From Opitutaceae bacterium (GTDB lineage: Bacteria > Verrucomicrobiota > Verrucomicrobiia > Opitutales > Opitutaceae): a stretch of DNA of 64,000 nt. Positions 16,583 through 31,039 of the stretch are shown here, in pieces. Within the stretch, counting starts at the first letter, position 1; each line of letters opens with the position of its first letter. The notes under the pieces are model-generated. The model ran no database searches. It saw only the letters and a program-made list of their open reading frames with translations, and was not told the DNA's origin. A program made the position numbers and the translations under genes. Where the stretch lies: the NCBI GenBank assembly GCA_028281165.1, contig JANQKI010000013.1, positions 14,825 through 78,824 on the forward strand. The letters run 5' to 3'.

Positions 16583-16940
<358 letters not shown>

Positions 16941-17231
16941 AAGTTATTTATAATCAATAATTTAAAAGAAAATTTTCTTTCGAATACACTGCATTTAGAG
17001 GTGTTTTTTACGCATTTTTCTACTGAGTCTTACTGAGTAAAAATTTGCCAGGACCCTTGGATTCAAAGTCCTAAAATTGCGGCTCTTCAGGAGCAGATCA
17101 GGCACACCTGATAATCCGATCCGCATGATCACGAAGGTCTAAGACCAAGCATGATCTAACATCGTAAGCCATAGCCCAATAGTTGTTGCAAATAGACATC
17201 CGACATTCGGCTCGAATAGACGGATGTCCTT

Positions 17232-18200
17232 ATGGAAAAGATTACCGAACTAAAAAAAGCCTATCTTAGTTACTGCAAGTATTCGAAAAGGCTGCTCTCC
17301 AACACAATCAAAGCTTATCAGCAAGATCTCGATAGCTTCATCGAGTTCTCCAAACAGCCAGGGACGAAGATCTCTGAGATCGGCCCCGAATTACTCCAAG
17401 CATTCGCAAAGCACCAATTGGAAATAAAGGGCGCCAAAGCTACCACCGTTCGAAGAAGAATCGCTTGCCTGAAAACGTTCTTCAAATGGGCTAAAAGCAA
17501 TCGATTTTTGGAGAAGTCACCATTCGAAGAAGTTCAGATCTCAATACGTACGCCCAAACGCCTTCCTCGTCATCTAAACAAAAGGGAGGTCCAGCTTCTA
17601 ACAAAGGCGGCACTACCAAAGTCAAATGGTCGAGCAGACAAGCTGCTGAAGCTTGCCAAACATGAACCTACGAATCTCGGTCTAACGACCTACGCTGCAA
17701 TCAATCTCATGACAGCAACGGGTATCAGAATAGGCGAACTCGTGAGCATAACACTTTCTGACATAAATACAGATGACGGCTCCATCAGGATAAAAGGGAA
17801 AGGAGCCCGAGAGAGAACAGTCTATGTGACCAACAAAATGCTGCTGGGCTTGATCACGAATATCGCAGGAGCGCTTTCACAAAAATCATCAAAGAACAAA
17901 GTACTCTTTCTCAACTCTCGAGGAACTAACCTGACTTCCCAAGCACTAAGGCTTAGGCTTAAAAAACTATCAAATAGCAGTATCCGAAAAAAAGTTACGC
18001 CTCATGCGCTTCGTCACACTGCCGCAACATTCCTCATAGATAGCGGCGTAGACATAAGATTCGTCCAAAAGCTGCTAGGACACGCAAGCATCAACACAAC
18101 TGAAATCTACACTCACGTTTCAGACCTGAGTCTCAAAAACACTCTTCTAAGGGTAGATGTAATCGGCGAGCTTCAAAAGAAGGAGGTGAAGTACGGATAA
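17232..18200 (+). CDS. Tyrosine recombinase/integrase (XerC/XerD-like)
   Basis: 322 aa with an N-terminal SAM-like core-binding domain. Catalytic landmarks are ATGIRIGEL (Arg), HALRHTAAT (H-x-x-R) and GHASINTTEIYTHV (His...Tyr). Confidence 0.9.
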   Translation: MEKITELKKAYLSYCKYSKRLLSNTIKAYQQDLDSFIEFSKQPGTKISEIGPELLQAFAKHQLEIKGAKATTVRRRIACLKTFFKWAKSNRFLEKSPFEEVQISIRTPKRLPRHLNKREVQLLTKAALPKSNGRADKLLKLAKHEPTNLGLTTYAAINLMTATGIRIGELVSITLSDINTDDGSIRIKGKGARERTVYVTNKMLLGLITNIAGALSQKSSKNKVLFLNSRGTNLTSQALRLRLKKLSNSSIRKKVTPHALRHTAATFLIDSGVDIRFVQKLLGHASINTTEIYTHVSDLSLKNTLLRVDVIGELQKKEVKYG

Positions 18201-18215
18201 CTAGGAATTATCCAT
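18197..18215. repeat. Inverted repeat, left copy
   Basis: ATAACTAGGAATTATCCAT. It covers the integrase stop (TAA 18198-18200) and the first 2 nt of the methyltransferase ATG. Confidence 0.95.
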
Positions 18216-19044
18216 GACCAACTCTAAAAGAAAAAGCTCAAGCGGCTCCGTCTATTCGGCCCTGGATTGGCTGAGCAATCACTATAGTATAAAATCGGAA
18301 GGTCGTTTTGATTTAGTCGGAAGGCTTCCAATTCAACCAGGTGATAGAATAATAGATATTGGATGTGCAAATGGTGCGTGGACCCGCATAATGGCAGAGA
18401 GAGTTGGCATTAACGGAGAAGTGTGGGGTGTTGATCTTGATCCCGAACTTATCCGACATGCAGCTAAAACCCACCAAAACAATCATCTCTCGCAAAGGAT
18501 CTCATTCAAAGTGCTCGACATTGAGGTCGAAGCTATTCCACCAGATTTTAATATAATAACCGCATTCAACACGCTTTCATTAGTAGAGAATCCTTTAATA
18601 GTACTCCAAAAGATTCATTCATATCTGAAAAGAACTAACGGAATTTTAATAATAAAAGATTCAGCTCTGTCTTCCGACTTTTTTTGGCCATTAGAGCCAA
18701 AGGTTCAAGAAGCAATATCGCAATCACTTTCCTCCGGTGGAAAAATAAACGGCTATGATCCTGATTTTGCACTAACTTGTCGAAAATACTTAAAACAGTG
18801 TGAATTTACCATTCAAGAAACCAAGTTAAGTTCCTATGCCTTCATGTATCCCTTCGGGCAAGAGCAGAGAACTTACATAAGCCAAAATGCTAAAATGATT
18901 CAAGAACTGAAGCCAGCTTCGACAGGCTCAGATGCAATCGATACATGGATCACGGACGAAATGTCTGAAGAAGGATCGTTTTTTGAGAGTTCAGATTCGA
19001 TCTACACGACCACGGAATACACATACATATGCAAACCTAGCTAA
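18214..19044 (+). CDS. Class I SAM-dependent methyltransferase (small-molecule/protein type; no DNA-MTase motif seen)
   Basis: 276 aa. Motif I is RIIDIGCANGAW, followed by the acidic loop GVDLD and post-I/II motifs (ITAFNTLSLVENP). I found no DPPY/NPPY-type motif. Confidence 0.8.
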   Translation: MTNSKRKSSSGSVYSALDWLSNHYSIKSEGRFDLVGRLPIQPGDRIIDIGCANGAWTRIMAERVGINGEVWGVDLDPELIRHAAKTHQNNHLSQRISFKVLDIEVEAIPPDFNIITAFNTLSLVENPLIVLQKIHSYLKRTNGILIIKDSALSSDFFWPLEPKVQEAISQSLSSGGKINGYDPDFALTCRKYLKQCEFTIQETKLSSYAFMYPFGQEQRTYISQNAKMIQELKPASTGSDAIDTWITDEMSEEGSFFESSDSIYTTTEYTYICKPS

Positions 19045-20284
19045 TGTAAGCATTTTCGAGCTTCAATATAAAAGGAGATATTTTGGAGTTTCTTTTATTC
19101 TTAGCTTCTGCAGCCCATTTTGTCGCTTTTTTCCCAAACAATGTGCCTATCATTTTTCCAAGAGGCTTGATATAAGGTATGGCAAGCACAGCACCTCCTA
19201 AGCTCCCTATGCTTTCAATAAACGTTGCTATATCCATTTCTGTATTGCTATTTTGAATCTGGCCTAATATTCTATCTACCCATTCTTTCGAACTCGCCTC
19301 CATTAATTGCCTTTCTGAAACATGCATACTCAACTCAAGTGCACTAGACACCTCTACGACAGCACTGTGATACGCATTCTTAAAACGGCTCCAATCTCCA
19401 TTTTTTAGATTATATAATTTATTGTAGTTTTCATTCACCAACATTTGAAAGGTTCTGCCGTCAATATAATTGCTTAAGAAACTCCCGAACAAAATTGGGG
19501 ACAAAAGAAAAGCCCTAGGAGAAGCAACTGCCACATTCGCGGACTCTCTAACAAAGGTCGGTGCAAGAAACGGTGAATATACCCAAATATCATCTAGCTC
19601 TTCTTTCATATGCTCGATTGTAGTACCGAACAACTCAAGTTTGGATACATCGAGAACTTCCTGCGTTAATAGAGCTTCTTCGAGAGAAGGAATCAATTCT
19701 ATAGCGATGAGGGAGCCAGTTTTCTCAAACTGCTCATCAACTACCGAAAAAACTTTTTCCATCTGTTTCTCGTCTCTGATACAAGTCGTCGACTCTAACC
19801 TCTCCTTGTATCTCTCAGCAAGATTCTGGTCAGGCATATTTGAGGCTCTAGAAATCACATGACCGCTGTCAAAAATACTCTTAATACTCGCGAGTTCTTT
19901 TCGCGTCTTGTTAATTCCCAAAACAGAACTTGCGTACCCAGTAGCGGATTCAAACATCGCTTGCGGATTGACTCCACCCCAACCGAGAATTTTCAGCGTT
20001 CCTGTTTGCAGCATCTCTCTGACGCGACGATGCTTAAGCACAGAATCTATGACTTTGGAGATAAACGGATCTCTCGCATTATACACTGTAGCGGAGGCTA
20101 TCAACACATAGTCAAAATACAGACTTAGCAGAATCAGATTCTTTATGTGGTAAGCGGTTTCGATCTCAACGTTTGATCGAACTAGCCTGTTGGTCGCGAT
20201 TGAAGTGTAGTAATACTCCGCTAACTCCTCATAGAGAACACTTCTCTCCTTTTGCGGTGAGGAATGTAGCGTTTCATCAGTCAT
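19037..20284 (-). CDS. Orphan 415-aa protein of unknown function with a C-terminal Gly-rich hydrophobic segment
   Basis: A long ORF in AT-rich DNA, where long open frames are unlikely by chance. It is convergent with the methyltransferase gene, and their stops overlap by 8 bp. The C-terminus reads IGSLGGAVLAIPYIKPLGKMIGTLFG followed by a Lys-rich tail. I recognise no catalytic motif. Confidence 0.75.
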   Translation of the reverse strand: MTDETLHSSPQKERSVLYEELAEYYYTSIATNRLVRSNVEIETAYHIKNLILLSLYFDYVLIASATVYNARDPFISKVIDSVLKHRRVREMLQTGTLKILGWGGVNPQAMFESATGYASSVLGINKTRKELASIKSIFDSGHVISRASNMPDQNLAERYKERLESTTCIRDEKQMEKVFSVVDEQFEKTGSLIAIELIPSLEEALLTQEVLDVSKLELFGTTIEHMKEELDDIWVYSPFLAPTFVRESANVAVASPRAFLLSPILFGSFLSNYIDGRTFQMLVNENYNKLYNLKNGDWSRFKNAYHSAVVEVSSALELSMHVSERQLMEASSKEWVDRILGQIQNSNTEMDIATFIESIGSLGGAVLAIPYIKPLGKMIGTLFGKKATKWAAEAKNKRNSKISPFILKLENAYIS

Positions 20285-20286
20285 TT

Positions 20287-20305
20287 ATGGATAATTCCTA
20301 GTTAT
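20287..20305. repeat. Inverted repeat, right copy
   Basis: ATGGATAATTCCTAGTTAT is the exact reverse complement of 18197-18215. It ends 2 nt from the ATG (20284-20282, minus strand) of the 415-aa ORF. Confidence 0.95.
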
Positions 20306-20719
20306 TCATACTTTGGGATTCGGACGACTTGGATAGTGAATCAAGGACGTTAGGCAACTCTTAAGGAGAATCACCGATAGAACTACCCTGAAAACGAACA
20401 AGAGAGGCCCAAAACCTCCCTACTTTTGTCCTACACTGGACAGGTTAGAGACTCAGCTAAAACCAGATCTGGGTGACCACAACAGGGAATCTAAGCAGCG
20501 AAGAGTGATCCGAATGTCTATCGTGTGTTGTTCCCTCAAGCAATGCATTACACTCGCGACTCGAAAGCTGAATCGTTTCTCGATCACTCGCCATTCCATT
20601 CCAACATCAGCCAACAAGGGACATCCCAAGACAAATCCTTGTGGACCTATGAGTGGACATGGACGTCAATTGAATCCGTAAACACTTGATACAGAGAGTA
20701 TTTCCAAATAATTTCTACA

Positions 20720-20747
20720 GGTTCGACTCCCGCCACCTCCACCAATT
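20720..20747 (+). repeat. Direct repeat copy 2 (displaced tmRNA 3' end)
   Basis: GGTTCGACTCCCGCCACCTCCACCAATT, identical to 16913-16940 but not attached to a tmRNA body. Confidence 0.95.
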
Positions 20748-20845
20748 TCCAGCTTTGCTGGAAACTGCCGCACCGTAGCTCGAAGAGCGAAGGCGGGCTC
20801 CGCCTGTTCGGAGAGGAACGCGCAACACGATGCATACTCGCTACG

Positions 20846-21540
20846 CTACCTTCCCATCCAGCCACCGTCGGCAATTAAGGTCGTGCCAGTCACATAGTTC
20901 GAAGCATCGCTTGCGAGAAAGACGATAGGGCCTTTGAAATCGTTGGGCTCGCCTCATCGGTTCGCAGGGATTCGCTCCAAGATTTGGCGGCTTCGAACCG
21001 GATCCTTCCCAAGGCTTCCGAGTTGTCGGTTTCGATGTAGCCGGGGCAATCGCGTTTACACAAACTCCAGATTTCGCCCATTCGTTGCTCAGAGCCATGG
21101 TCAGCTGCTCGATGGCTCCATTGCTCGCGGCATACCCGGGAACGGTAATCCCGCCCTGAAAGCTTAATAGCGAAACTGTGAAGATAATCTTTCCGCGCCC
21201 ACGCTCGATCGTGCCCTTTCCTATTTCCCGAGCCAACACGAACTGAGCATTCAGATTCACTGCGATTACCTTATCCCAAAGCTTGTCGCCATGCTCTGCT
21301 GCCGGAGCCCTTAAGATCGTTCCCGCATTGTTCACCAGAATATCGATACAGGAATGATTTTCGAGCAACTGCCCCACAAAGGCTTTCACTGCTTCCCTGT
21401 TAGAGAAATCGCAACGGTAGGGCCAAAATCGCCTTCCCTCTCTTTCAACTGCCTCGCGAACCGGGCTCGAGCCTTCTGGCAGACTCGCAGACACTACTAC
21501 GATATCTGCTCCTGCTTCAGCAAGCCCCTCCGTGATCGGC
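20846..21540 (-). pseudogene. kduD: 2-dehydro-3-deoxy-D-gluconate 5-dehydrogenase (KduD-like SDR) remnant
   Basis: The SDR sequence is readable only across three frames: ITEGLAEAGADIVVV...NNAG...YAASNGAIEQL...NAIAP | GYIETDNSEAL | [52 protein letters not shown]. There are frame changes near 21040-21046 and about 21005, and an in-frame TGA at 20954-20956. The N-terminal Gly-rich motif is missing. Confidence 0.8.
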
Positions 21541-22372
21541 CAGCAACGCCACTAGCATCGCGATATAAAACGGCGTCATCGCCCGCGCCACTCTGGCCAT
21601 ATCCGACTTCCCAACGCTGCACCCCACAAAGAGACATGTCCCCACAGGAGGAGTACAGAGGCCAATACAGAGGTTCGCGATCATTACGATTCCGAAATGG
21701 ACCGGATCCATACCGATCTTCTCGACCACGGGCATCAGAATCGCGGGCGTTATGTCTATGAACACTCCCGCCGCAAGAAACAACGCGTTCAGGATTAGCA
21801 AGATCGCGATCGGATTATCGGAAAAGCCAACCAATACGGCACTCGCCTCCTGAGGCGCTTGTTCGCTAATCAATAGCTGGCTCATCGCTCGACTTGCCGC
21901 TACCGGCAAGAACACTACAGAGGTCGTTTTGGCCGAGCGGAGCAACAGCTCGCTCAAGCTGTTCAATGGAATCTCCCTATACGCAACGGATCCTAGCGCG
22001 AAAGCCCAAACAACCGCGACGGCTGACGCCTCCGTTGCGGTAAAGACACCGCCTAGTATCCCTCCCAGCACTACGAAGATGAGAGCTAGACCAGGTAGCG
22101 CGCGCCAAAGACTCTTTCCTAGTCTTGGAATCTCTTCGATCTTATCCGCAGCAAATGCCCCGGCGCGACACTTCCAAATCGCAACCAATATCAAGCAGAG
22201 CCCCACCATAATGCCAGGACCGACTCCTCCCTCCCAAGAACAAAGCTCCCACCGACACGTTAGCCGCGATAACCGCTTAGACGATCATCACATTGCTAGG
22301 CGGAATCGGCAAACCCACCGTCGCAGACGCGGGCGTTATTTTCCGTGGATGGTAATAAAACTTCCTAATATA
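21541..22372 (-). pseudogene. dctM: TRAP transporter large permease (DctM) remnant, fused to kduD'
   Basis: The C-terminal half is DctM-like (..IDITPAILMPVVEKIGMDPVHFGIVMIANLCIGLCTPPVGTCLF..). Upstream, the piece ATVGLPIPPSNVMIV*AVIAANVSVGALF carries an in-frame TAA at 22277-22279, and there is a frame change near 22210-22240. The N-terminal ~200 aa and the last ~20 aa are absent. Confidence 0.75.
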
Positions 22373-23338: not shown

Positions 23339-25666
23339 TCAGTATTCAACATTAAATGACATCAGGTACTCCGCAGGAAGCTCCCGGTAGTAAGCGTCCC
23401 GTGTTCCGGGAACCCAACCTCTATTTCTTTCATCCAGTTTGAAGAGGTTTTTAGCAGCCAAGTTTAGACGGTACTTGTATTTATCGTCTTCCCACGCGTA
23501 GCCAACGCCCGCTTGCAACGCGGTGCGAGCATCAATATAAGCCGGTGCGCCGCCGCGGTTGTGCGTCCTCTGCCGCTCGCTGCGCCAAATCACACCACCC
23601 GAAGCGGAAAAGCCGTTGAGAGGGCCTTCAGACCATTTGTACTTGCTGAAGATACTGGCTTTGTGGTCGAAATCATTCAACCTGCGACCGACAGCATCAG
23701 GGTCGAGATTGGCGGAAATCGTGGCGTCTTTGTATCCATAGCTGAATACAATATTCCAGCCAGCCATCGGATAGAAGAAGAAGTCCGCGTCAACGCCTTC
23801 GTAGGTGGTTTCACCGACCGAAACGTTTGCCCCTACTGGATCAATACTCGGATCGGCCGTCGGATTGAATTGATTAGGCGCGGTTTCATCAAATTGGATG
23901 GTATTGGACTCTGTGATCTTGTAGATGCTGAACGTTCCGCTGATTTTCCCGTTTGGGTCAGCGAATTTAGCGCCGACTTCATGTATTTCGCCCTGCTTGG
24001 GGCCAAATTGATTTCCGAAGCCATCTTCCCTGCCCTGATTACTGTCTATCGATTGCGAGAAGTTAACGTAGACACCCAACATATCGTTGACCGAATAGAT
24101 AGCTCCAATCTGTGGCATCGAATCGCTTTCGTTGTAACCAGTTCTTCTTGACTCAGCGCCAAGCGGAAGATCGGAGCTCGTGCGGTTCCATGCGATATTT
24201 GTCTGCGTGAGGTCGGTATCGTAAATCCCGATCATTGTCGTTAGCCTATCATTAAACCACTTGGTGTGGTGGCTCAGATAGACAGAATTCCAGTCGAAGA
24301 TCGCCAAGTCGTCGTCCTGCCAGGGTCCTCTGCCATGAAAGGGCGGGACATGGTACATCTGATCTTTTTCGAATAGCGAGTAGGTGTTTCCCGACACACG
24401 ATCTCCATTCTCATCAACCCAATAGTCTCTCACTCTGTCAGTTGTATCGTACTGGGTGAGGTAGCCTGCAACGAAGCGGTGACGTTGCTCGCCGAGGTCC
24501 AGGTGCCAAGCGACCTGAGCTCGGACGCCTTCAACAATCTGGTCTCTATCGACTTGCCGAAAGTGGTTGGTCCACCAAACCCATTCGCCATCTTCATCTT
24601 GTCTCGGACCGGCTCCGTTGGGCAAGGGCCCCCAGTGAACCTTTCGGTTATGGTAGTTGTAATCCACATTCACCGTCACGTTTTGATCAAATCGGTGTTC
24701 GACGGAGATTAGGGTGTCGTTTACGATTTCAGGAGTCGCGTAGTTGATCTCGGTGGGGGTAAAGGAAATGCCTTCATCCAAGCGATTAGGTTCATAGTTG
24801 CCGTTGAAGTAATGGACCAATGGCACTTGACCTGGAAGATTACCGCCGGTCGGATCAGGCACGTTGATCATATTCTGGAACGCTACGTCCTGGTTGGCTT
24901 GGCGCTCGCCATTCACAGTATAATACTCGTGCTGGATGCCGAGAAGCGTGTTGTCGGTGAAGTTGAACGTCAGCGACGGCATAATGTTCTCCAACTCGCG
25001 CCTTCCAATCTGATTTTCGTAATCTCCACTTTCCAGGCCACCGGCTAAACGAAAGGTAGCGAACGCCTTGCCATCGTCTCTCATGGACAAGCGCCTATTG
25101 AAATCGAAGTTGGCAATCATGCGGTCCAGCGGCTTGCCGTACAGGAACTTGAACTTCGTGAAATCGCGGTACGGGTTCGGCTTCTTGGTGACTACGTTGA
25201 TAACCCCGCCTGGCTTAGTCACGCCATCGAGAATCGCGTTAGGACCTTTGATGACTTCCACTCTGTCTATCGTCGCGGACCCATTGTCCGAATAGCGCCT
25301 GAAACCATTGCGTAGATACTCGAGACTATTGATGCCGCGAACGTTCTTGCCTTCGACCGAACCCATCCAGGAAGTGGCCTCGCGATTGGCGCCGCCGAAG
25401 GTGTGCGTTTGGCCCCCAAAGGCGAACACGTCCTCCATGAATTGCTCCGTCACGACCTGGAGGTTGAACGGCACGTCTTTCAGGGGAACGGACATGCGGG
25501 TAGCCGCTTGGGAGTTCGTCGTTTCGTAAGCCGCGGATTCGTTCGCCTGTACATTGAAAGGCGATAGCTCGAATACGATATTATCGTCCTGAGCCAATGC
25601 AGTAGCCCCTAACAGGAGCCCGGGTAGCAAAAGGAATTTGCGATAGTTTGATTTTTTTTCCTTCAT
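23339..25666 (-). CDS. TonB-dependent outer-membrane receptor (no STN domain)
   Basis: 775 aa with a signal peptide. It has a plug domain (DRVEVIKGPNAILDGVTKPGGVINVVTKKP), a long beta-barrel and a terminal aromatic residue (..SFNVEY). It is paralogous to 28379..31039. Confidence 0.9.
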   Translation of the reverse strand: MKEKKSNYRKFLLLPGLLLGATALAQDDNIVFELSPFNVQANESAAYETTNSQAATRMSVPLKDVPFNLQVVTEQFMEDVFAFGGQTHTFGGANREATSWMGSVEGKNVRGINSLEYLRNGFRRYSDNGSATIDRVEVIKGPNAILDGVTKPGGVINVVTKKPNPYRDFTKFKFLYGKPLDRMIANFDFNRRLSMRDDGKAFATFRLAGGLESGDYENQIGRRELENIMPSLTFNFTDNTLLGIQHEYYTVNGERQANQDVAFQNMINVPDPTGGNLPGQVPLVHYFNGNYEPNRLDEGISFTPTEINYATPEIVNDTLISVEHRFDQNVTVNVDYNYHNRKVHWGPLPNGAGPRQDEDGEWVWWTNHFRQVDRDQIVEGVRAQVAWHLDLGEQRHRFVAGYLTQYDTTDRVRDYWVDENGDRVSGNTYSLFEKDQMYHVPPFHGRGPWQDDDLAIFDWNSVYLSHHTKWFNDRLTTMIGIYDTDLTQTNIAWNRTSSDLPLGAESRRTGYNESDSMPQIGAIYSVNDMLGVYVNFSQSIDSNQGREDGFGNQFGPKQGEIHEVGAKFADPNGKISGTFSIYKITESNTIQFDETAPNQFNPTADPSIDPVGANVSVGETTYEGVDADFFFYPMAGWNIVFSYGYKDATISANLDPDAVGRRLNDFDHKASIFSKYKWSEGPLNGFSASGGVIWRSERQRTHNRGGAPAYIDARTALQAGVGYAWEDDKYKYRLNLAAKNLFKLDERNRGWVPGTRDAYYRELPAEYLMSFNVEY

Positions 25667-28378: not shown

Positions 28379-31039
28379 ATGAACATGCGCCAAGTGACTA
28401 GCAACGGAGCGAGAGCGTTCGTCCTCGTCGTGGCGGTCTTTGCCTTTCTAACCTCTCGGTCGAGTGCCGAGGAGCCACATGCTTTTGAGCTGAAAGCTAA
28501 CACCGCAGCCAAATCCCTAAAGCAATTCGCGCGGCAGGCACGCTTGAGCATTATCTTCAAGCCCAGTACTGTTAGGGATATTCGGACCAACGAAGTCCGG
28601 GGCCTCATGCTCCCGGAAGATGCTCTGACGCAACTCCTCGACAACACGCTCCTCGACTTTCGCCGTAGCGGTGGATCAGGTGGCTTGGTGGTCTTTCGCC
28701 AGGAAAAAATGGAGGCCGTATCCGGCACTGACATTGCACGAATCGACGAATATCCTCCTGGGGACAAATTTCCGAAAAAAAGTTTCATAGGTCACATTGC
28801 AAACCTGTTAGTCGCGCCCGGCGAGGGTAAACCTCACAGAGGAGCGGATCCCGAATTCGATAAAATTACCCTCTCCCCTTTCGTCGTTGAAGCGGACGAT
28901 AGCAGCACTTACAATGCTTCCAACGCGCATAGCGCTACACGAATGTATGTGCCGCTTAAATACGTTCCATTCAACCTTCAAGTAATAACGAACGCCTTTA
29001 TCGACGACACCATGTCTTTTGGTGGCGAGCCGCTACCCTTTGGAGGAGGCGCCAATCGCGAAGCCACTTCCTGGATCGGCGCGGTTGAAGGCAAGAGCGT
29101 TCGTGGATTCAACACGCGCGAATACCTTCGCAATGGATTCTTGCGCTATTCGGACAATGGTTCCGCAACTATTGATCGAATTGAAGTGATCAAAGGCCCC
29201 ACCTCGGTTTTGGATGGCATCACAAGTCCCGGAGGCGTTATCAATGTCATAACGAAAACACCCGACCCTCATCAGGACTTTTCTCGTTTTAAAATCGTAT
29301 TGGGCGCGCCTCTCAATCGTATCGTCGCCAATTTCGACATCAATCGCCGTCTCAACGGAAAAACTGACCATTTTCCCAAATTCACATTCCGTCTAGCCGC
29401 CGGGTATGAAAAATCCCACTACCTGTCGCGTTATCGTAAACGCGAGCTTGAGAACATCATGCCATCGCTTTATGTCGAATTGTCGGAAAACACCTTTATA
29501 GGAATCCAACACGAATATTACTATGTTAATGGCGAAAGGGGCAATGAGATCTATGGCTTTTTCAATACGGTGCCAGTGGAACATCCCAATGGTCTTGATG
29601 GCGAGGTCCCTTTGAGCGATCACTACGGTATCGACAGGTTCATGTCTTGGGACGGTCCCGATTTCAGCACGCCGGAGCGGGTCAACGATTCACTTGTTTC
29701 CTTTCAGCATTCCTTTGCCAAGAATTTTGTATTCAAAATCGACTACAGCTATCACAAGCGAAGAGTTAATTGGGGTCCCTATAGCGTACGCCGTGAAGTT
29801 AACGAAACGAATGGCGTTCCCTATTGGAGCCATGAATGGGCGCAAAACGACCGCTCGCAGTCCGTTGAAGGCCTTCGGGTCAACGCTGCCTATACAGCCC
29901 AGACGAGCAATGCGGAACATCGCTTTGTTGCAGGCTACGTAAAACAAGATGACTCCACCATATCCGCCCCTGAAGACTTCGCTAACGAGGATGGCACGCT
30001 GCTGCGCTCCCGTTTTCCGCTGCTTGATCCCGCTCCTGACCTCCGAGCCCCTTCGCCTCCCGCGTTAAGTCGCCGGCCGCGAAGCGATAGAAATGTTGGA
30101 ACGGATTCTCTCTACCTGAACCACCACGCTCGATGGTTCAACGGCAAGCTGACGACATTGTGGGGAATATATAACGCAAATTTGGATACGACTCGACTTC
30201 AGACTCAACGAGATCCCCTCGTTCCGGCGCTCGACCCGATATTCTATAAGGCAAGCAAGGCGATGCCCCAAGCGGGAATCGTGTATGCGCTCAACAATTT
30301 CATCGGACTGTACGCCAACTATTCCGAATCCATGCAGGGCAACGCGGGCGTGCTTGATGGATTCGATGATCCATTTCCGGAAACGCCCGGTGAGATTCGA
30401 GAAATCGGAAGCAAGTTCGAAACGGAAGGCGGTAAAATCAGTGGCATCGTAAGTCTATTTGAAATCAAGGAATCCAATCGCATCGTTTGGGACCCGCTAG
30501 CCCCCAATAAGGACAACCCCAGCGCTGATCCAAGCCTGGAACGAGGAGCAAACGTTTCAATCGACGAACTCACTTCCAAGGGATTCGACGCGGACCTGTT
30601 CTTCTACCCGATAAAGAACTTCAATACGGTACTGAGCTATGGATACAAATCGATGGAGGTTTCCGCAGACGAGGATCCGAATTGGGTTGGCCGCTCACAA
30701 AATATCTACAAGCACAAGATCAGCCTGTTTAACAAGTACACTTGGTCGGAGGGGCCACTAGCCGGCGTTTCTGCCAACGCGGGCTTGACGTGGCGCAGCA
30801 AGCAGCAGCGACACCATGATCGGTTTGGCGCTCCCGCGTATGAGGATCCCCGCCTTGGCCTTCAAGTCGGCGTGGGCTATCAATGGAAGAGCGAACGAGC
30901 GAGCTATCAAGTGCGTCTAGCCGCCAAGAATTTGGGCAAATTCACGAAGTTGTCTTCTGGATACATTCCCGGAACGCGCGACGCGTATTACCAAGAACTT
31001 CCCGCTGAGTATTTACTTTCCTTCGACATGGGTTACTAA
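28379..31039 (+). CDS. TonB-dependent transducer (STN signalling domain + plug + barrel)
   Basis: 886 aa. An N-terminal STN-like segment (AAKSLKQFARQARLSIIFKPSTVRDIRTNEVRGLMLPEDALTQLLDNTLL) precedes the plug (DRIEVIKGPTSVLDGITSPGGVINVITKTP). The C-terminus is ..LLSFDMGY. Confidence 0.9.
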   Translation: MNMRQVTSNGARAFVLVVAVFAFLTSRSSAEEPHAFELKANTAAKSLKQFARQARLSIIFKPSTVRDIRTNEVRGLMLPEDALTQLLDNTLLDFRRSGGSGGLVVFRQEKMEAVSGTDIARIDEYPPGDKFPKKSFIGHIANLLVAPGEGKPHRGADPEFDKITLSPFVVEADDSSTYNASNAHSATRMYVPLKYVPFNLQVITNAFIDDTMSFGGEPLPFGGGANREATSWIGAVEGKSVRGFNTREYLRNGFLRYSDNGSATIDRIEVIKGPTSVLDGITSPGGVINVITKTPDPHQDFSRFKIVLGAPLNRIVANFDINRRLNGKTDHFPKFTFRLAAGYEKSHYLSRYRKRELENIMPSLYVELSENTFIGIQHEYYYVNGERGNEIYGFFNTVPVEHPNGLDGEVPLSDHYGIDRFMSWDGPDFSTPERVNDSLVSFQHSFAKNFVFKIDYSYHKRRVNWGPYSVRREVNETNGVPYWSHEWAQNDRSQSVEGLRVNAAYTAQTSNAEHRFVAGYVKQDDSTISAPEDFANEDGTLLRSRFPLLDPAPDLRAPSPPALSRRPRSDRNVGTDSLYLNHHARWFNGKLTTLWGIYNANLDTTRLQTQRDPLVPALDPIFYKASKAMPQAGIVYALNNFIGLYANYSESMQGNAGVLDGFDDPFPETPGEIREIGSKFETEGGKISGIVSLFEIKESNRIVWDPLAPNKDNPSADPSLERGANVSIDELTSKGFDADLFFYPIKNFNTVLSYGYKSMEVSADEDPNWVGRSQNIYKHKISLFNKYTWSEGPLAGVSANAGLTWRSKQQRHHDRFGAPAYEDPRLGLQVGVGYQWKSERASYQVRLAAKNLGKFTKLSSGYIPGTRDAYYQELPAEYLLSFDMGY

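What the first reader, a model, noticed from the sequence alone, without database searches (positions are those of the whole stretch)
18197..20305. Perfect 19-bp inverted repeats bracket a convergent two-gene cassette beside the recombinase: candidate invertible gene-swap switch
ATAACTAGGAATTATCCAT (18197-18215) and its exact reverse complement (20287-20305) match 20/21 when extended to 18195/20307.

The left copy contains the integrase stop codon (18198-18200) and runs into the methyltransferase ATG (18214). The right copy ends 2 nt before the ATG of the 415-aa ORF on the other strand. Both cargo genes therefore share an identical 16-19 nt 5' context, and they converge with stops overlapping by 8 bp (19037-19044).

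My estimate of the chance of any perfect 19-bp inverted repeat in 64 kb is of order 10^-2, before requiring both copies to sit on start codons.

Recombination between the repeats would invert 18216-20286. That would exchange which ORF lies 13-22 nt downstream of the recombinase gene and is co-transcribed with it; the other gene would then face the attR side. A tyrosine recombinase next to an IR-flanked segment is the established architecture of invertons and shufflons. A switch that alternates two complete, unrelated genes behind the recombinase gene, inside an ssrA islet, is not something I know to be described.

An alternative explanation is a shared operator or translational-control site. 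The repeat contains an internal GGATAA-N7-TTATCC dyad.
Basis: partly seen in the sequence, partly recalled or inferred. Interest (0 to 1): 0.8.

Follow-up and report, generated by a model that had tools for sequence, protein, structure and literature searches.

The report
Flip-switch cassette swapping two unrelated genes
A 2.1-kb piece of DNA holding two unrelated genes sits between short inverted repeats next to a recombinase gene, and an otherwise identical relative is found in both orientations in nature, so it is very likely a real flip switch, one that swaps whole unrelated genes rather than a promoter or alternative copies of one gene.

Summary
The 19-nt inverted repeat (18197-18215 / 20287-20305) is the longest perfect one in the window and extends to 25/27.

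The recombinase, methyltransferase and 415-aa gene travel together in 12 distinct elements. The two cargo genes are 35-67% identical to their relatives. Every element has the same 15-nt core (ATAAC-N5-ATTAT) at both cassette ends. The core is identical between the two arms in 11/11 elements but has seven different central sequences across elements.

For one relative, eight contigs with 100% identical parts show all four junctions. L015 has the recombinase next to the 415-aa gene. L018 has it next to the methyltransferase.

For the window's own element the evidence is indirect: k=31 contigs from run SRR20820735 break at the repeat edges.

Both start codons lie 0-29 nt inside the core, so both genes need outside promoters.

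The cargo's function is unknown. The methyltransferase is of the small-molecule type, not a DNA methylase. The 415-aa protein has no known fold, and one distant relative carries a TIR domain.

Verdict: a real tyrosine-recombinase inversion switch, a new variant of a known kind.

The parts
16583..16937 (+). tmRNA gene (ssrA), the integration target of the islet
   Evidence: ARAGORN. Rfam RF00023, 152 bits.
16913..16940 (+). attL: left copy of the 28-nt direct repeat GGTTCGACTCCCGCCACCTCCACCAATT (3' end of ssrA)
   Evidence: family D1, 100% identical to 20720-20747..
17232..18200 (+). XerC/XerD-like tyrosine recombinase (322 aa). Its stop codon TAA (18198-18200) lies inside the repeat core.
   Evidence: Pfam Phage_integrase 2.4e-40 plus Phage_int_SAM_1. 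NCBIfam XerD 7.6e-63 and XerC 6.5e-61, both below the equivalog cut-offs. Catalytic R, K, HxxR, H and Y are conserved with orthologues of five other elements (A2).
18189..18215 (+). Left (recombinase-side) arm of the inverted repeat. The 15-nt core ATAACTAGGAATTAT is at 18197-18211 and the perfect 19 nt at 18197-18215. It holds the int stop codon, a Shine-Dalgarno-like AGGA and the first two bases of the methyltransferase ATG.
18216..20286 (.). Invertible segment (2071 nt), filled by two convergent ORFs with no room for an internal promoter
   Evidence: Orientation variants of the homologous segment. Logan contig L001 = window 18197-20316.
18214..19044 (+). Class I SAM-dependent methyltransferase of the small-molecule type (276 aa)
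   Evidence: Pfam Methyltransf_31, 23, 25, 12 and 11. AF2 pLDDT 85.6. Best Foldseek matches are RebM, AtmM, phosphoethanolamine N-MTases and BioC, with no DNA methylase among the top 50. No DPPY/NPPY motif.
19037..20284 (-). 415-aa protein of unknown function, founding a small family. It has a well-folded N-terminal region of about 235 residues and a conserved hydrophobic segment near residues 352-385.
   Evidence: No hit in Pfam, NCBIfam, PADLOC, PHROGs or the PDB sequence search. No structural match in PDB (best E 0.38). 13 homologues and 63 clusters at 50% identity. Hydropathy.
20287..20313 (-). Right (outer-flank-side) arm of the inverted repeat, with the core at 20291-20305
20314..20719 (.). 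Non-coding outer flank of the islet between the right arm and attR. It is not conserved among related elements and contains a terminator-like hairpin (20421-20401, minus strand).
   Evidence: No recombinase remnant.
20720..20747 (+). attR: right copy of the 28-nt direct repeat
   Evidence: family D1.

Best explanation
The window holds a 3.8-kb islet inserted in the tmRNA gene. The islet consists of one compact module.

The module:
- A XerC/XerD-like tyrosine recombinase gene.
- A 2.1-kb cassette bracketed by two inverted copies of a dif-like core site. The site has a conserved outer arm ending in ATAA, a variable central region of about 7 nt, and TTAT.

Proposed mechanism:
1. The recombinase pairs the two sites and exchanges strands in the central region. 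Because the sites are inverted, the cassette flips.
2. The cassette holds two convergent genes whose stop codons overlap by 8 nt: a small-molecule-type SAM methyltransferase and a 415-aa protein of unknown function.
3. Both start codons lie within 0-29 nt of the core. The methyltransferase's ribosome-binding site is inside the core. Neither gene can therefore carry its own promoter.
4. Whichever gene faces the recombinase is read on the recombinase transcript. It starts 13 nt (methyltransferase) or 17 nt (415-aa gene) after the recombinase stop codon.
5. The other gene faces a non-conserved outer flank and is also crossed by antisense read-through.

The switch therefore most likely gives two alternative cell states: methyltransferase on, or 415-aa protein on.

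What is shown and what is inferred:
- Shown: the sites, their conservation and arm-to-arm covariation, and both orientations of a homologous element in natural samples.
- Inferred: that this recombinase does the flipping, that the window's own copy is active, and the expression logic.
- Unknown: what the two proteins do. Weak hints point to a conflict or defence role.
For: Repeat significance:
- The repeat is real and improbable by chance.

Conservation of the module:
- The module is conserved in 12 distinct elements, with 35-66% identity in the 415-aa protein.
- Hosts include an alphaproteobacterial MAG (Minwuia) and a gammaproteobacterium (Candidatus Kentrum).
- Each element has the stop-NN-stop convergent pair and a recombinase, or a remnant of one, beside the methyltransferase side.

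Site structure:
- The 15-nt core is identical between the two arms in 11/11 elements.
- The central 7 nt has seven different versions across elements.
- The flanking ATAA and TTAT stay constant. This is the pattern expected of a tyrosine-recombinase site, where the crossover region must match between partner sites.
- The motif ATAA[CT]-N6-TTAT occurs only at the two arms in the window and in each locus.

Both orientations of one element (all parts 100% identical):
- L015 (8.4 kb): int-IR-415>  <MTase-IR-flank.
- L018: flank-IR-415>  <MTase-IR-int.
- L017 and L022 repeat these two arrangements.
- L016, L019, L020 and L021 carry the same outer flank on both ends. That requires both junctions in one sample.

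Contig breaks:
- Four independent short contigs are just the cassette and end at the repeat: L001, L009, L012, L013.
- Three are Logan assemblies with k=31 (PMC12424806). Their arms of 19-28 nt are too short to break the graph on their own.
- L001 comes from the window's own element. It ends exactly at 18197. Its other end starts with the first 31-mer that contains the inner distinguishing base.

Expression geometry:
- No internal promoter space: the methyltransferase ATG is 0-2 nt after the core, or overlaps it, in every element. The 415-aa start is 1-29 nt after the core.
- Outer flanks are unrelated between elements.
Against: - No reads were examined. All orientation evidence comes from assembled contigs.
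- For the window's own element, no contig shows the flipped state. The MAG contig and Logan contig L002 run through the left arm in the int-MTase orientation.
- Consensus assemblies of 8 of 9 elements with usable flanks have the methyltransferase next to the recombinase side. The switch is therefore biased or rarely flipped.
- The end of contig L003 at 18214 is 1 nt short of the predicted branch node. This is unexplained.
- In L005 the recombinase gene points away from the cassette, so co-transcription with the recombinase is not universal.
- No sigma-70-like promoter was found upstream of int or in the outer flank. The host's promoter type is unknown.
- The window's arms differ at 2 of the 8 outer positions.
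Confidence: 0.72

Rival explanations
1. The module is an inversion switch as a family, but the window's copy is frozen or flips very rarely. The islet is then simply fixed in the int-MTase state.
For: - Only the int-MTase orientation is seen in the window and in L002.
- The perfect repeat is only 19 nt, with 2 mismatches in the outer 8 nt.
- Most related elements are assembled in this same orientation.
- Two relatives (L004, L023) have lost the recombinase yet keep the repeats.
Against: - The window's recombinase is full length with all catalytic residues.
- The 15-nt core is intact in both arms.
- Three ends of contigs L001 and L003 from SRR20820735 fall at, or within 1 nt of, the branch points predicted for a mixed population.
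Confidence: 0.2
2. The repeat is a shared operator or translational-control element for the two genes, for example a hairpin GGAUAA-N7-UUAUCC around the ribosome-binding site. No DNA inversion takes place.
For: - The core contains a 6+6 dyad and a Shine-Dalgarno-like AGGA just before both start codons.
- The purine-rich centre is kept in most elements.
Against: - Both orientations of an otherwise identical element exist.
- Contigs break at the repeat in four assemblies.
- The site occurs nowhere else in the window.
- The central sequence varies between elements yet always matches between the arms. A common regulator site would not need this.
- The two roles are not exclusive. The site can also serve as the ribosome-binding region.
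Confidence: 0.04
3. The two orientations and the contig breaks are assembly artefacts caused by the inverted repeats.
For: - Inverted repeats can confuse de Bruijn assemblers.
- Four JGI contigs (L016, L019, L020, L021) are clearly chimeric, with the same flank on both ends.
- No reads were inspected.
Against: - The arms (19-28 nt) are shorter than k-1 in Logan assemblies (k=31). They are far shorter than the final k of the megahit contigs (record names k119, k141) and of typical SPAdes runs. No k-mer is therefore shared between the arms unless both junction types are present in the reads.
- All four junction types recur in several independent samples with exact recombinant sequence.
- The chimeric contigs themselves require both flank-415 and flank-MTase k-mers in one sample.
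Confidence: 0.06
4. The cassette does invert, but through the host's XerC/XerD or RecA acting on the repeats, not through the adjacent recombinase.
For: - The core resembles the centre of dif (ATAA-spacer-TTAT; E. coli dif recalled from general knowledge).
- L004 and L023 keep near-perfect cores without an intact recombinase.
Against: - A recombinase orthologue, or its remnant, accompanies the cassette in every element where the flank is visible.
- In most elements its stop codon sits in or directly beside the core.
- 15-28 nt is at or below the size RecA uses efficiently (general knowledge).
- The module occurs in at least two proteobacterial classes, whose own Xer and dif differ.
Confidence: 0.08

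Closest known systems
Phage Mu G segment / P1 C segment (Gin/Cin) and the Moraxella pilin inversion (Piv)
   Same: - An invertible segment of 2-3 kb holds two convergent gene sets between short inverted repeats.
- The invertase gene is adjacent.
- The promoter is outside, so inversion decides which gene set is read. (General knowledge.)
   Different: - Those systems use serine (Gin/Cin) or DEDD-type (Piv) invertases.
- They swap homologous variants of one function (tail fibres, pilins) fused to a constant 5' part.
- Here the enzyme is a XerC/D-like tyrosine recombinase.
- The two genes here are complete and unrelated.
Tyrosine-recombinase invertons (FimB/FimE-fimS, Bacteroides Tsr, C. difficile RecV)
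   Same: - A tyrosine recombinase acts on short inverted repeats.
- The result is population heterogeneity.
- The recombinase is often encoded next to the switch.
   Different: - Those invert a small promoter-bearing segment.
- Here the segment is 2.1 kb of coding sequence with no promoter space.
- The FimB/FimE models match only weakly (1e-12).
R64 shufflon (Rci) and the Mycoplasma pulmonis vsa/hsd inversions (HvsR)
   Same: - A tyrosine recombinase is involved.
- Short asymmetric sites have one well-conserved arm.
- Alternative coding segments are brought to a single expression site. (General knowledge.)
   Different: - Shufflons have three or more sites and exchange 3' exons or paralogous genes.
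- Here there are exactly two sites and two unrelated full genes.
Gene-altering programmed inversions (Milman et al. 2023, PMC9881135) and hsdS epigenetic invertons (PMC7672463)
   Same: Inversion between repeats linked to two opposed coding sequences, with a recombinase nearby.
   Different: - Those alter one gene by exchanging parts with a homologous partial copy.
- Their search required repeats of at least 22 bp with at least one strictly inside a CDS. It would miss repeats that only overlap start codons, as in the window.
- The methyltransferase here is not a DNA methylase.
XerC/XerD-dif and Xer-type integrative elements; ssrA-integrated islets
   Same: - The recombinase's best family matches are XerD and XerC.
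- The core ATAA-N7-TTAT resembles the centre of dif.
- The islet sits in ssrA with a 28-nt direct repeat.
   Different: - Scores are far below the XerC/XerD equivalog cut-offs (212 vs 330 bits).
- The sites are an inverted pair around cargo, not a single chromosomal dif.
- The other 11 elements show no tRNA or tmRNA nearby and no flanking direct repeats.

Membership tests
Site-specific DNA inversion switch driven by a tyrosine recombinase | Two copies of a specific site in inverted orientation bracket the segment | tested here: met
   19 nt perfect, 25/27 extended. The same 15-nt core lies at both ends in all 11 elements with both ends visible.
Site-specific DNA inversion switch driven by a tyrosine recombinase | A tyrosine recombinase with intact catalytic residues is encoded at the locus | tested here: met
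   Pfam Phage_integrase 2.4e-40. R, K, HxxR, H and Y are invariant in alignment A2.
Site-specific DNA inversion switch driven by a tyrosine recombinase | Both orientations coexist in a population, with exact recombinant junctions | tested here: inconclusive
   Met for the homologous element L015-L022 at contig level, with all four junctions and 100% identical parts. For the window's own element there are only contig breaks at the repeat in SRR20820735. No reads were available.
Site-specific DNA inversion switch driven by a tyrosine recombinase | Inversion depends on the recombinase | not testable with these tools
   Needs a reporter assay or a mutant.
Promoter inverton (fimS type) | The invertible segment carries the promoter and flanks a fixed gene | tested here: not met
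   The segment 18216-20286 is filled by two ORFs that start 0 and 2 nt from the arms. No promoter-like site lies near the arms.
Shufflon (R64/Rci type) | Three or more recombination sites giving multiple rearrangements of alternative 3' gene segments | tested here: not met
   Exactly two sites in the window and in each related locus.
Mu G / P1 C type invertible gene segment | Serine invertase of the Gin/Hin family with an enhancer; alternative homologous genes | tested here: not met
   The recombinase is of the tyrosine type. The two cargo genes are unrelated to each other. The enhancer was not examined.
Integron | IntI-type integrase above the family cut-off, with attI/attC cassettes in direct order | tested here: not met
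   The integron integrase models score 98 and 63 bits against cut-offs of 265 and 435. The sites are inverted around one two-gene unit.
Phase-variable DNA methyltransferase (phasevarion) or restriction-modification inverton | The methyltransferase is a DNA methylase (N6/N4/C5 motifs) or the target is hsdS | tested here: not met
   No DPPY/NPPY motif. The best structural matches are small-molecule methyltransferases. PADLOC MTase_II gives only E 0.0017, and the mad2 hit covers only the generic SAM domain.
ssrA-integrated genomic islet | Island directly 3' of the tmRNA gene, bounded by a direct repeat of the ssrA 3' end, carrying an integrase, with deviating composition | tested here: met
   tmRNA 16583-16937. 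28-nt direct repeat. int 17232-18200. G+C 38-45% against 50-55% outside.

The most novel reading that the evidence does not exclude
The three-gene unit is a self-mobile 'flip module'. In this reading a single Xer-like recombinase both integrates the 3.8-kb islet (here into ssrA) and toggles its cargo. The toggle would set two mutually exclusive cell states. In one, a small-molecule methyltransferase is made. In the other, a membrane-associated effector is made, from a family that elsewhere carries a TIR domain. That would make it a phase-variable conflict or defence system of a new type, spread among marine Proteobacteria and other bacteria.
Probability: 0.2. Interest if true: 0.85.

Novelty: new variant of a known kind. 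Interest (0 to 1): 0.68.

Why it matters
Inversion switches are a classic route to bet-hedging. Known examples flip promoters or exchange variants of one protein, such as pilins, tail fibres and specificity subunits.

A compact, horizontally spread module that alternates two unrelated complete genes behind a recombinase gene would add a different logic: choosing between two activities rather than two versions of one.

The family would be missed by the one published search checked here (Milman et al. 2023), because the window's repeats only overlap start codons. Similar whole-gene toggles may therefore be under-counted, especially outside host-associated bacteria.

It also offers a short 15-19-bp site and a 300-320-aa recombinase that could be tested as a simple genetic toggle.

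Finally, it supplies a functional handle on two protein families that occur only in this module: whatever they do, cells appear to need one or the other.

Tried and rejected
- **Relic of a second integrase gene.** The right arm's outer extension reads K-Y-E-stop against the integrase's K-Y-G-stop. tblastn of six recombinases against the outer flanks found no remnant beyond about 8 nt. The resemblance is better explained by arm homogenisation.
- **Conserved promoter in the outer flank.** The flanks of seven elements do not align (33% mean identity). The sigma-70 scan found nothing near the arms, and site counts equal the shuffle expectation.
- **Function of the 415-aa protein.** Pfam, NCBIfam, PADLOC, PHROGs, PDB sequence profile, AF2 plus Foldseek-PDB were all negative. 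The C-terminal 180 residues are poorly modelled.
- **DNA methylase or phasevarion reading.** Rejected.
- **Third site or shufflon.** None found.
- **Flanking direct repeats in other loci.** None of 12 nt or more. No tRNA or tmRNA nearby. ssrA is therefore not the module's general target.
- **Viral contigs.** No relative.
- **Host organism.** Not identified.
- **First repeat-significance script.** It timed out and was rerun.
- **Literature.** Four searches found no description of this module.


Full report
**1. The observation**

- ATAACTAGGAATTATCCAT lies at 18197-18215. Its exact reverse complement lies at 20287-20305.
- The pair extends outward to 27 nt with two mismatches (18189-18215 / 20287-20313).
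- No further copy exists in the window, even with three mismatches.
- It is the longest perfect inverted repeat in the 64 kb. Only 1 of 150 composition-matched simulations reached 19 nt.
- The left arm contains the recombinase stop codon (18198-18200) and runs into the methyltransferase ATG (18214).
- The right arm ends 2 nt before the ATG of the 415-aa ORF on the other strand.
- The two ORFs converge with an 8-nt overlap.

The whole unit is a 3.8-kb islet directly after the tmRNA gene (16583-16937). It is bounded by a 28-nt direct repeat (16913-16940 / 20720-20747). Its G+C content is lower than that of the surroundings.

**2. The parts**

- The 322-aa protein is a XerC/XerD-like tyrosine recombinase. 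Pfam gives Phage_integrase 2.4e-40 with an N-terminal SAM-like domain. NCBIfam gives XerD and XerC at about 1e-62, well below the equivalog cut-offs.
- The 276-aa protein is a class I SAM methyltransferase. It lacks the DPPY/NPPY motif of DNA methylases. Its confident AF2 model (pLDDT 85.6) matches small-molecule methyltransferases best: RebM, AtmM, phosphoethanolamine N-methyltransferases and BioC.
- The 415-aa protein matches nothing in Pfam, NCBIfam, PADLOC, PHROGs or PDB sequences.
  - Its N-terminal 235 residues or so fold confidently, but have no structural neighbour in PDB.
  - A hydrophobic segment near residues 352-385 is conserved across the family.

**3. Relatives**

The 415-aa protein has 13 homologues at 35-66% identity. 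An exhaustive profile search of 1.84 billion representatives found only 63 clusters. The methyltransferase subfamily is equally rare, and five of its six other members sit on the contigs of cassettes found through the 415-aa protein.

Every contig that could be read has the same layout:
- The 415-aa gene and a 276-280-aa methyltransferase converge. The stop-NN-stop overlap is 8 nt in ten of the related elements and 28 nt in the most distant one.
- An orthologous recombinase lies on the methyltransferase side (34-40% identity, catalytic residues invariant).

Two elements have only a truncated or pseudogenised recombinase: L004 and L023. One (L005) has the recombinase on the opposite strand.

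Identified hosts include a Minwuia MAG (Alphaproteobacteria) and Candidatus Kentrum (Gammaproteobacteria). Neighbouring genes are often mobile-element or conflict-related: HicA, a second integrase, a transposase, a KAP NTPase and ArdA. Only the window's copy is at ssrA with flanking direct repeats.

**4. The site**

In all 12 elements the cassette is bracketed by inverted repeats of 19-45 nt that share a 15-nt core. The consensus is ATAACT.gGAATTAT.
- The core is identical between the two arms in 11 of 11 elements where both arms are visible.
- The central 7 nt takes seven different forms across elements: CTAGGAA, CTGGGAA, CTCTGGA, CTCAGAA, CTCGGAA, CCGAGAA and TTAGGAA. The flanking ATAA and TTAT stay constant.
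- The six bases outside the core are also similar in both arms (GTAACG-like). The inner side is poorly conserved.

This anatomy is a conserved binding arm, a variable central region that must match between partners, and a weaker second arm. It is what tyrosine-recombinase core sites look like. From general knowledge, it resembles the centre of E. coli dif (GCGCATAA-TGTATA-TTATG). That fits a Xer-like enzyme.

Because the central region is asymmetric and the two copies are inverted, recombination gives inversion rather than deletion. In L004, L013 and L023 the identity runs on past the core, and in L004 and L013 it covers the first seven or eight codons of both genes. This is expected if the arms are homogenised by repeated exchange.

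**5. Evidence for inversion in nature**

One element encodes protein P0003, which is 52% identical to the window's 415-aa protein. It was recovered on eight JGI metagenome contigs. The recombinase flank, repeat, cassette and outer flank are all 100% identical across these contigs.

| Contig(s) | Arrangement |
|---|---|
| L015 (8.4 kb), L017 | recombinase - IR - 415> <MTase - IR - outer flank |
| L018, L022 | outer flank - IR - 415> <MTase - IR - recombinase |
| L016, L019, L020, L021 | outer flank on both ends |

The last arrangement cannot be a real molecule. It can only be assembled if both flank-415 and flank-MTase junctions are present in the same sample. All four junctions are exact recombinants.

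Independently, four short contigs from different samples consist of the cassette alone and stop at the repeats: L001, L009, L012 and L013. Three are Logan assemblies, built with k=31 (PMC12424806). Arms of 19-28 nt share no 31-mer, so the graph branches there only if each cassette end is joined to more than one outer sequence.

L012 starts at the first base of the 20-nt repeat at both ends. L001 comes from the window's own element (100% identical, run SRR20820735):
- It ends exactly at 18197.
- At the other end it begins with the first 31-mer that includes the base distinguishing the 415 side from the MTase side.
- The recombinase contig of the same run (L003) stops inside the left arm at 18214.

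This is the pattern a mixed population predicts. However, L003 ends 1 nt short of the predicted node, which I cannot explain. No contig shows the window's element in the flipped state.

**6. How it most likely works**

- The methyltransferase start codon lies 0-2 nt after the core, or overlaps it, in every element. Its Shine-Dalgarno sequence (AGGAA, GGGAA, GAGAA) is therefore part of the core.
- The 415-aa start lies 1-29 nt after the core.
- The segment thus has no room for promoters of its own.
- On one side the upstream sequence is always the recombinase gene. In most elements its stop codon is in or beside the core.
- On the other side the flank is unrelated between elements, and its neighbouring gene may point either way.

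The simplest reading is that the recombinase transcript continues into whichever gene faces it. Transcription then runs on as antisense through the other gene, since the two overlap without a terminator. This gives two alternative states.

This step is inferred, not shown. L005, with its divergent recombinase gene, shows that it is not the only arrangement. Consensus assemblies mostly show the methyltransferase next to the recombinase, which suggests a biased switch.

**7. What the cargo does**

This is open.
- The methyltransferase is not a DNA methylase, so a restriction-modification or phasevarion reading is unlikely.
- One distant member of the 415-aa family replaces the C-terminal part with a TIR domain (P0057).
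- Together with the hydrophobic C-terminus and the mobile or defence-island neighbourhoods, this hints at a conflict-system effector. It is no more than a hint.

**8. Rivals**

- A pure operator or translational element is contradicted by the orientation variants.
- An assembly artefact is unlikely because the arms are shorter than k and the junctions recur across samples. Only reads can close this.
- Host Xer or RecA could be the catalyst. The constant company of a dedicated recombinase argues otherwise.
- The window's copy might be frozen. This remains a real possibility (about 0.2).

**9. Comparison and novelty**

The logic of alternative convergent genes in an invertible segment read from outside is that of the Mu G segment and the Moraxella pilin switch. 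The enzyme class and short sites are those of tyrosine-recombinase invertons and shufflons.

The switch is not a member of any of these families:
- It has no promoter in the segment.
- It has only two sites.
- It uses a tyrosine, not a serine, invertase.
- Its two genes are unrelated and complete.

The systematic search of Milman et al. 2023 required repeats of at least 22 bp with at least one strictly inside a CDS, so it would miss repeats like the window's. Four literature searches found no description.

I rate it a new variant of a known kind, well supported as a family and probable for this window.

Noticed in passing
window 25092-25396 and 29045-29349: The second-longest perfect inverted repeat in the window is 18 nt, CCATTGTCCGAATAGCGC, at 25281 and 29143. 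It is part of a 305-nt, 71% inverted similarity between two divergent paralogous ORFs: 775 aa at 23339-25666 (-) and 886 aa at 28379-31039 (+). Neither has a Pfam match. It is explained by paralogy and is unrelated to the switch.
   Followed up: partly
P0057 (distant member of the 415-aa family): This 520-aa protein has residues 9-328 matching the family profile. Its C-terminus is a TIR_2 domain (residues 401-499, E 1.8e-11), in place of the hydrophobic C-terminal part of the 415-aa proteins. TIR fusions are typical of conflict or defence effectors.
   Followed up: partly
L023 4882-5400 (minus strand): The most distant cassette has a 415 homologue at 35% identity and comes from a run (SRR20820740) numbered close to the window's runs. 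It keeps a 37-nt, 92% repeat with the core ATAATTAGGAATTAT. Its recombinase is a pseudogene fragment with an in-frame stop and LGH changed to LGQ.
   Followed up: yes
L005 7916-8959: In this element the recombinase gene starts 116 nt from the repeat and points away from the cassette. No third site lies downstream of it. This is a variant architecture that does not fit simple co-transcription.
   Followed up: partly
window 18214 (end of Logan contig L003): L003 ends at 18214. That is 1 nt short of the node (18185-18215) at which a k=31 graph should branch if both orientations are present. Its start (16910) and that of L002 (16908) lie 3-5 nt before the ssrA direct repeat. The cause is not resolved. 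Variation among tmRNA 3' ends in the metagenome may explain the starts.
   Followed up: partly
window 16938-16950 (minus strand), at the attL boundary: The minus strand reads ATAACTTAATTGG. This is the two half-motifs of the inversion core (ATAAC ... AATT) with a 2-nt gap instead of 4, straddling the end of the 28-nt direct repeat. It might be a recombinase half-site used for integration, or a chance match in A+T-rich DNA. Seen by eye.
   Followed up: no
window 20401-20421 (minus strand): A terminator-like hairpin followed by a T-run (AGGGAGGTTTTGGGCCTCTCT TGTTCGTTTT) lies about 95 nt upstream of the right arm, facing the cassette. It could insulate the outer-side gene from read-through. The number of such sites in the region equals the shuffle expectation.
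   Followed up: no
window 20841-22209 (minus strand): The short-chain dehydrogenase ORF just outside attR (20841-21494) matches the adh_short profile only from position 40 onward. It is preceded by another ORF on the same strand (21517-22209). It is possibly a disrupted or mis-started gene.
   Followed up: no
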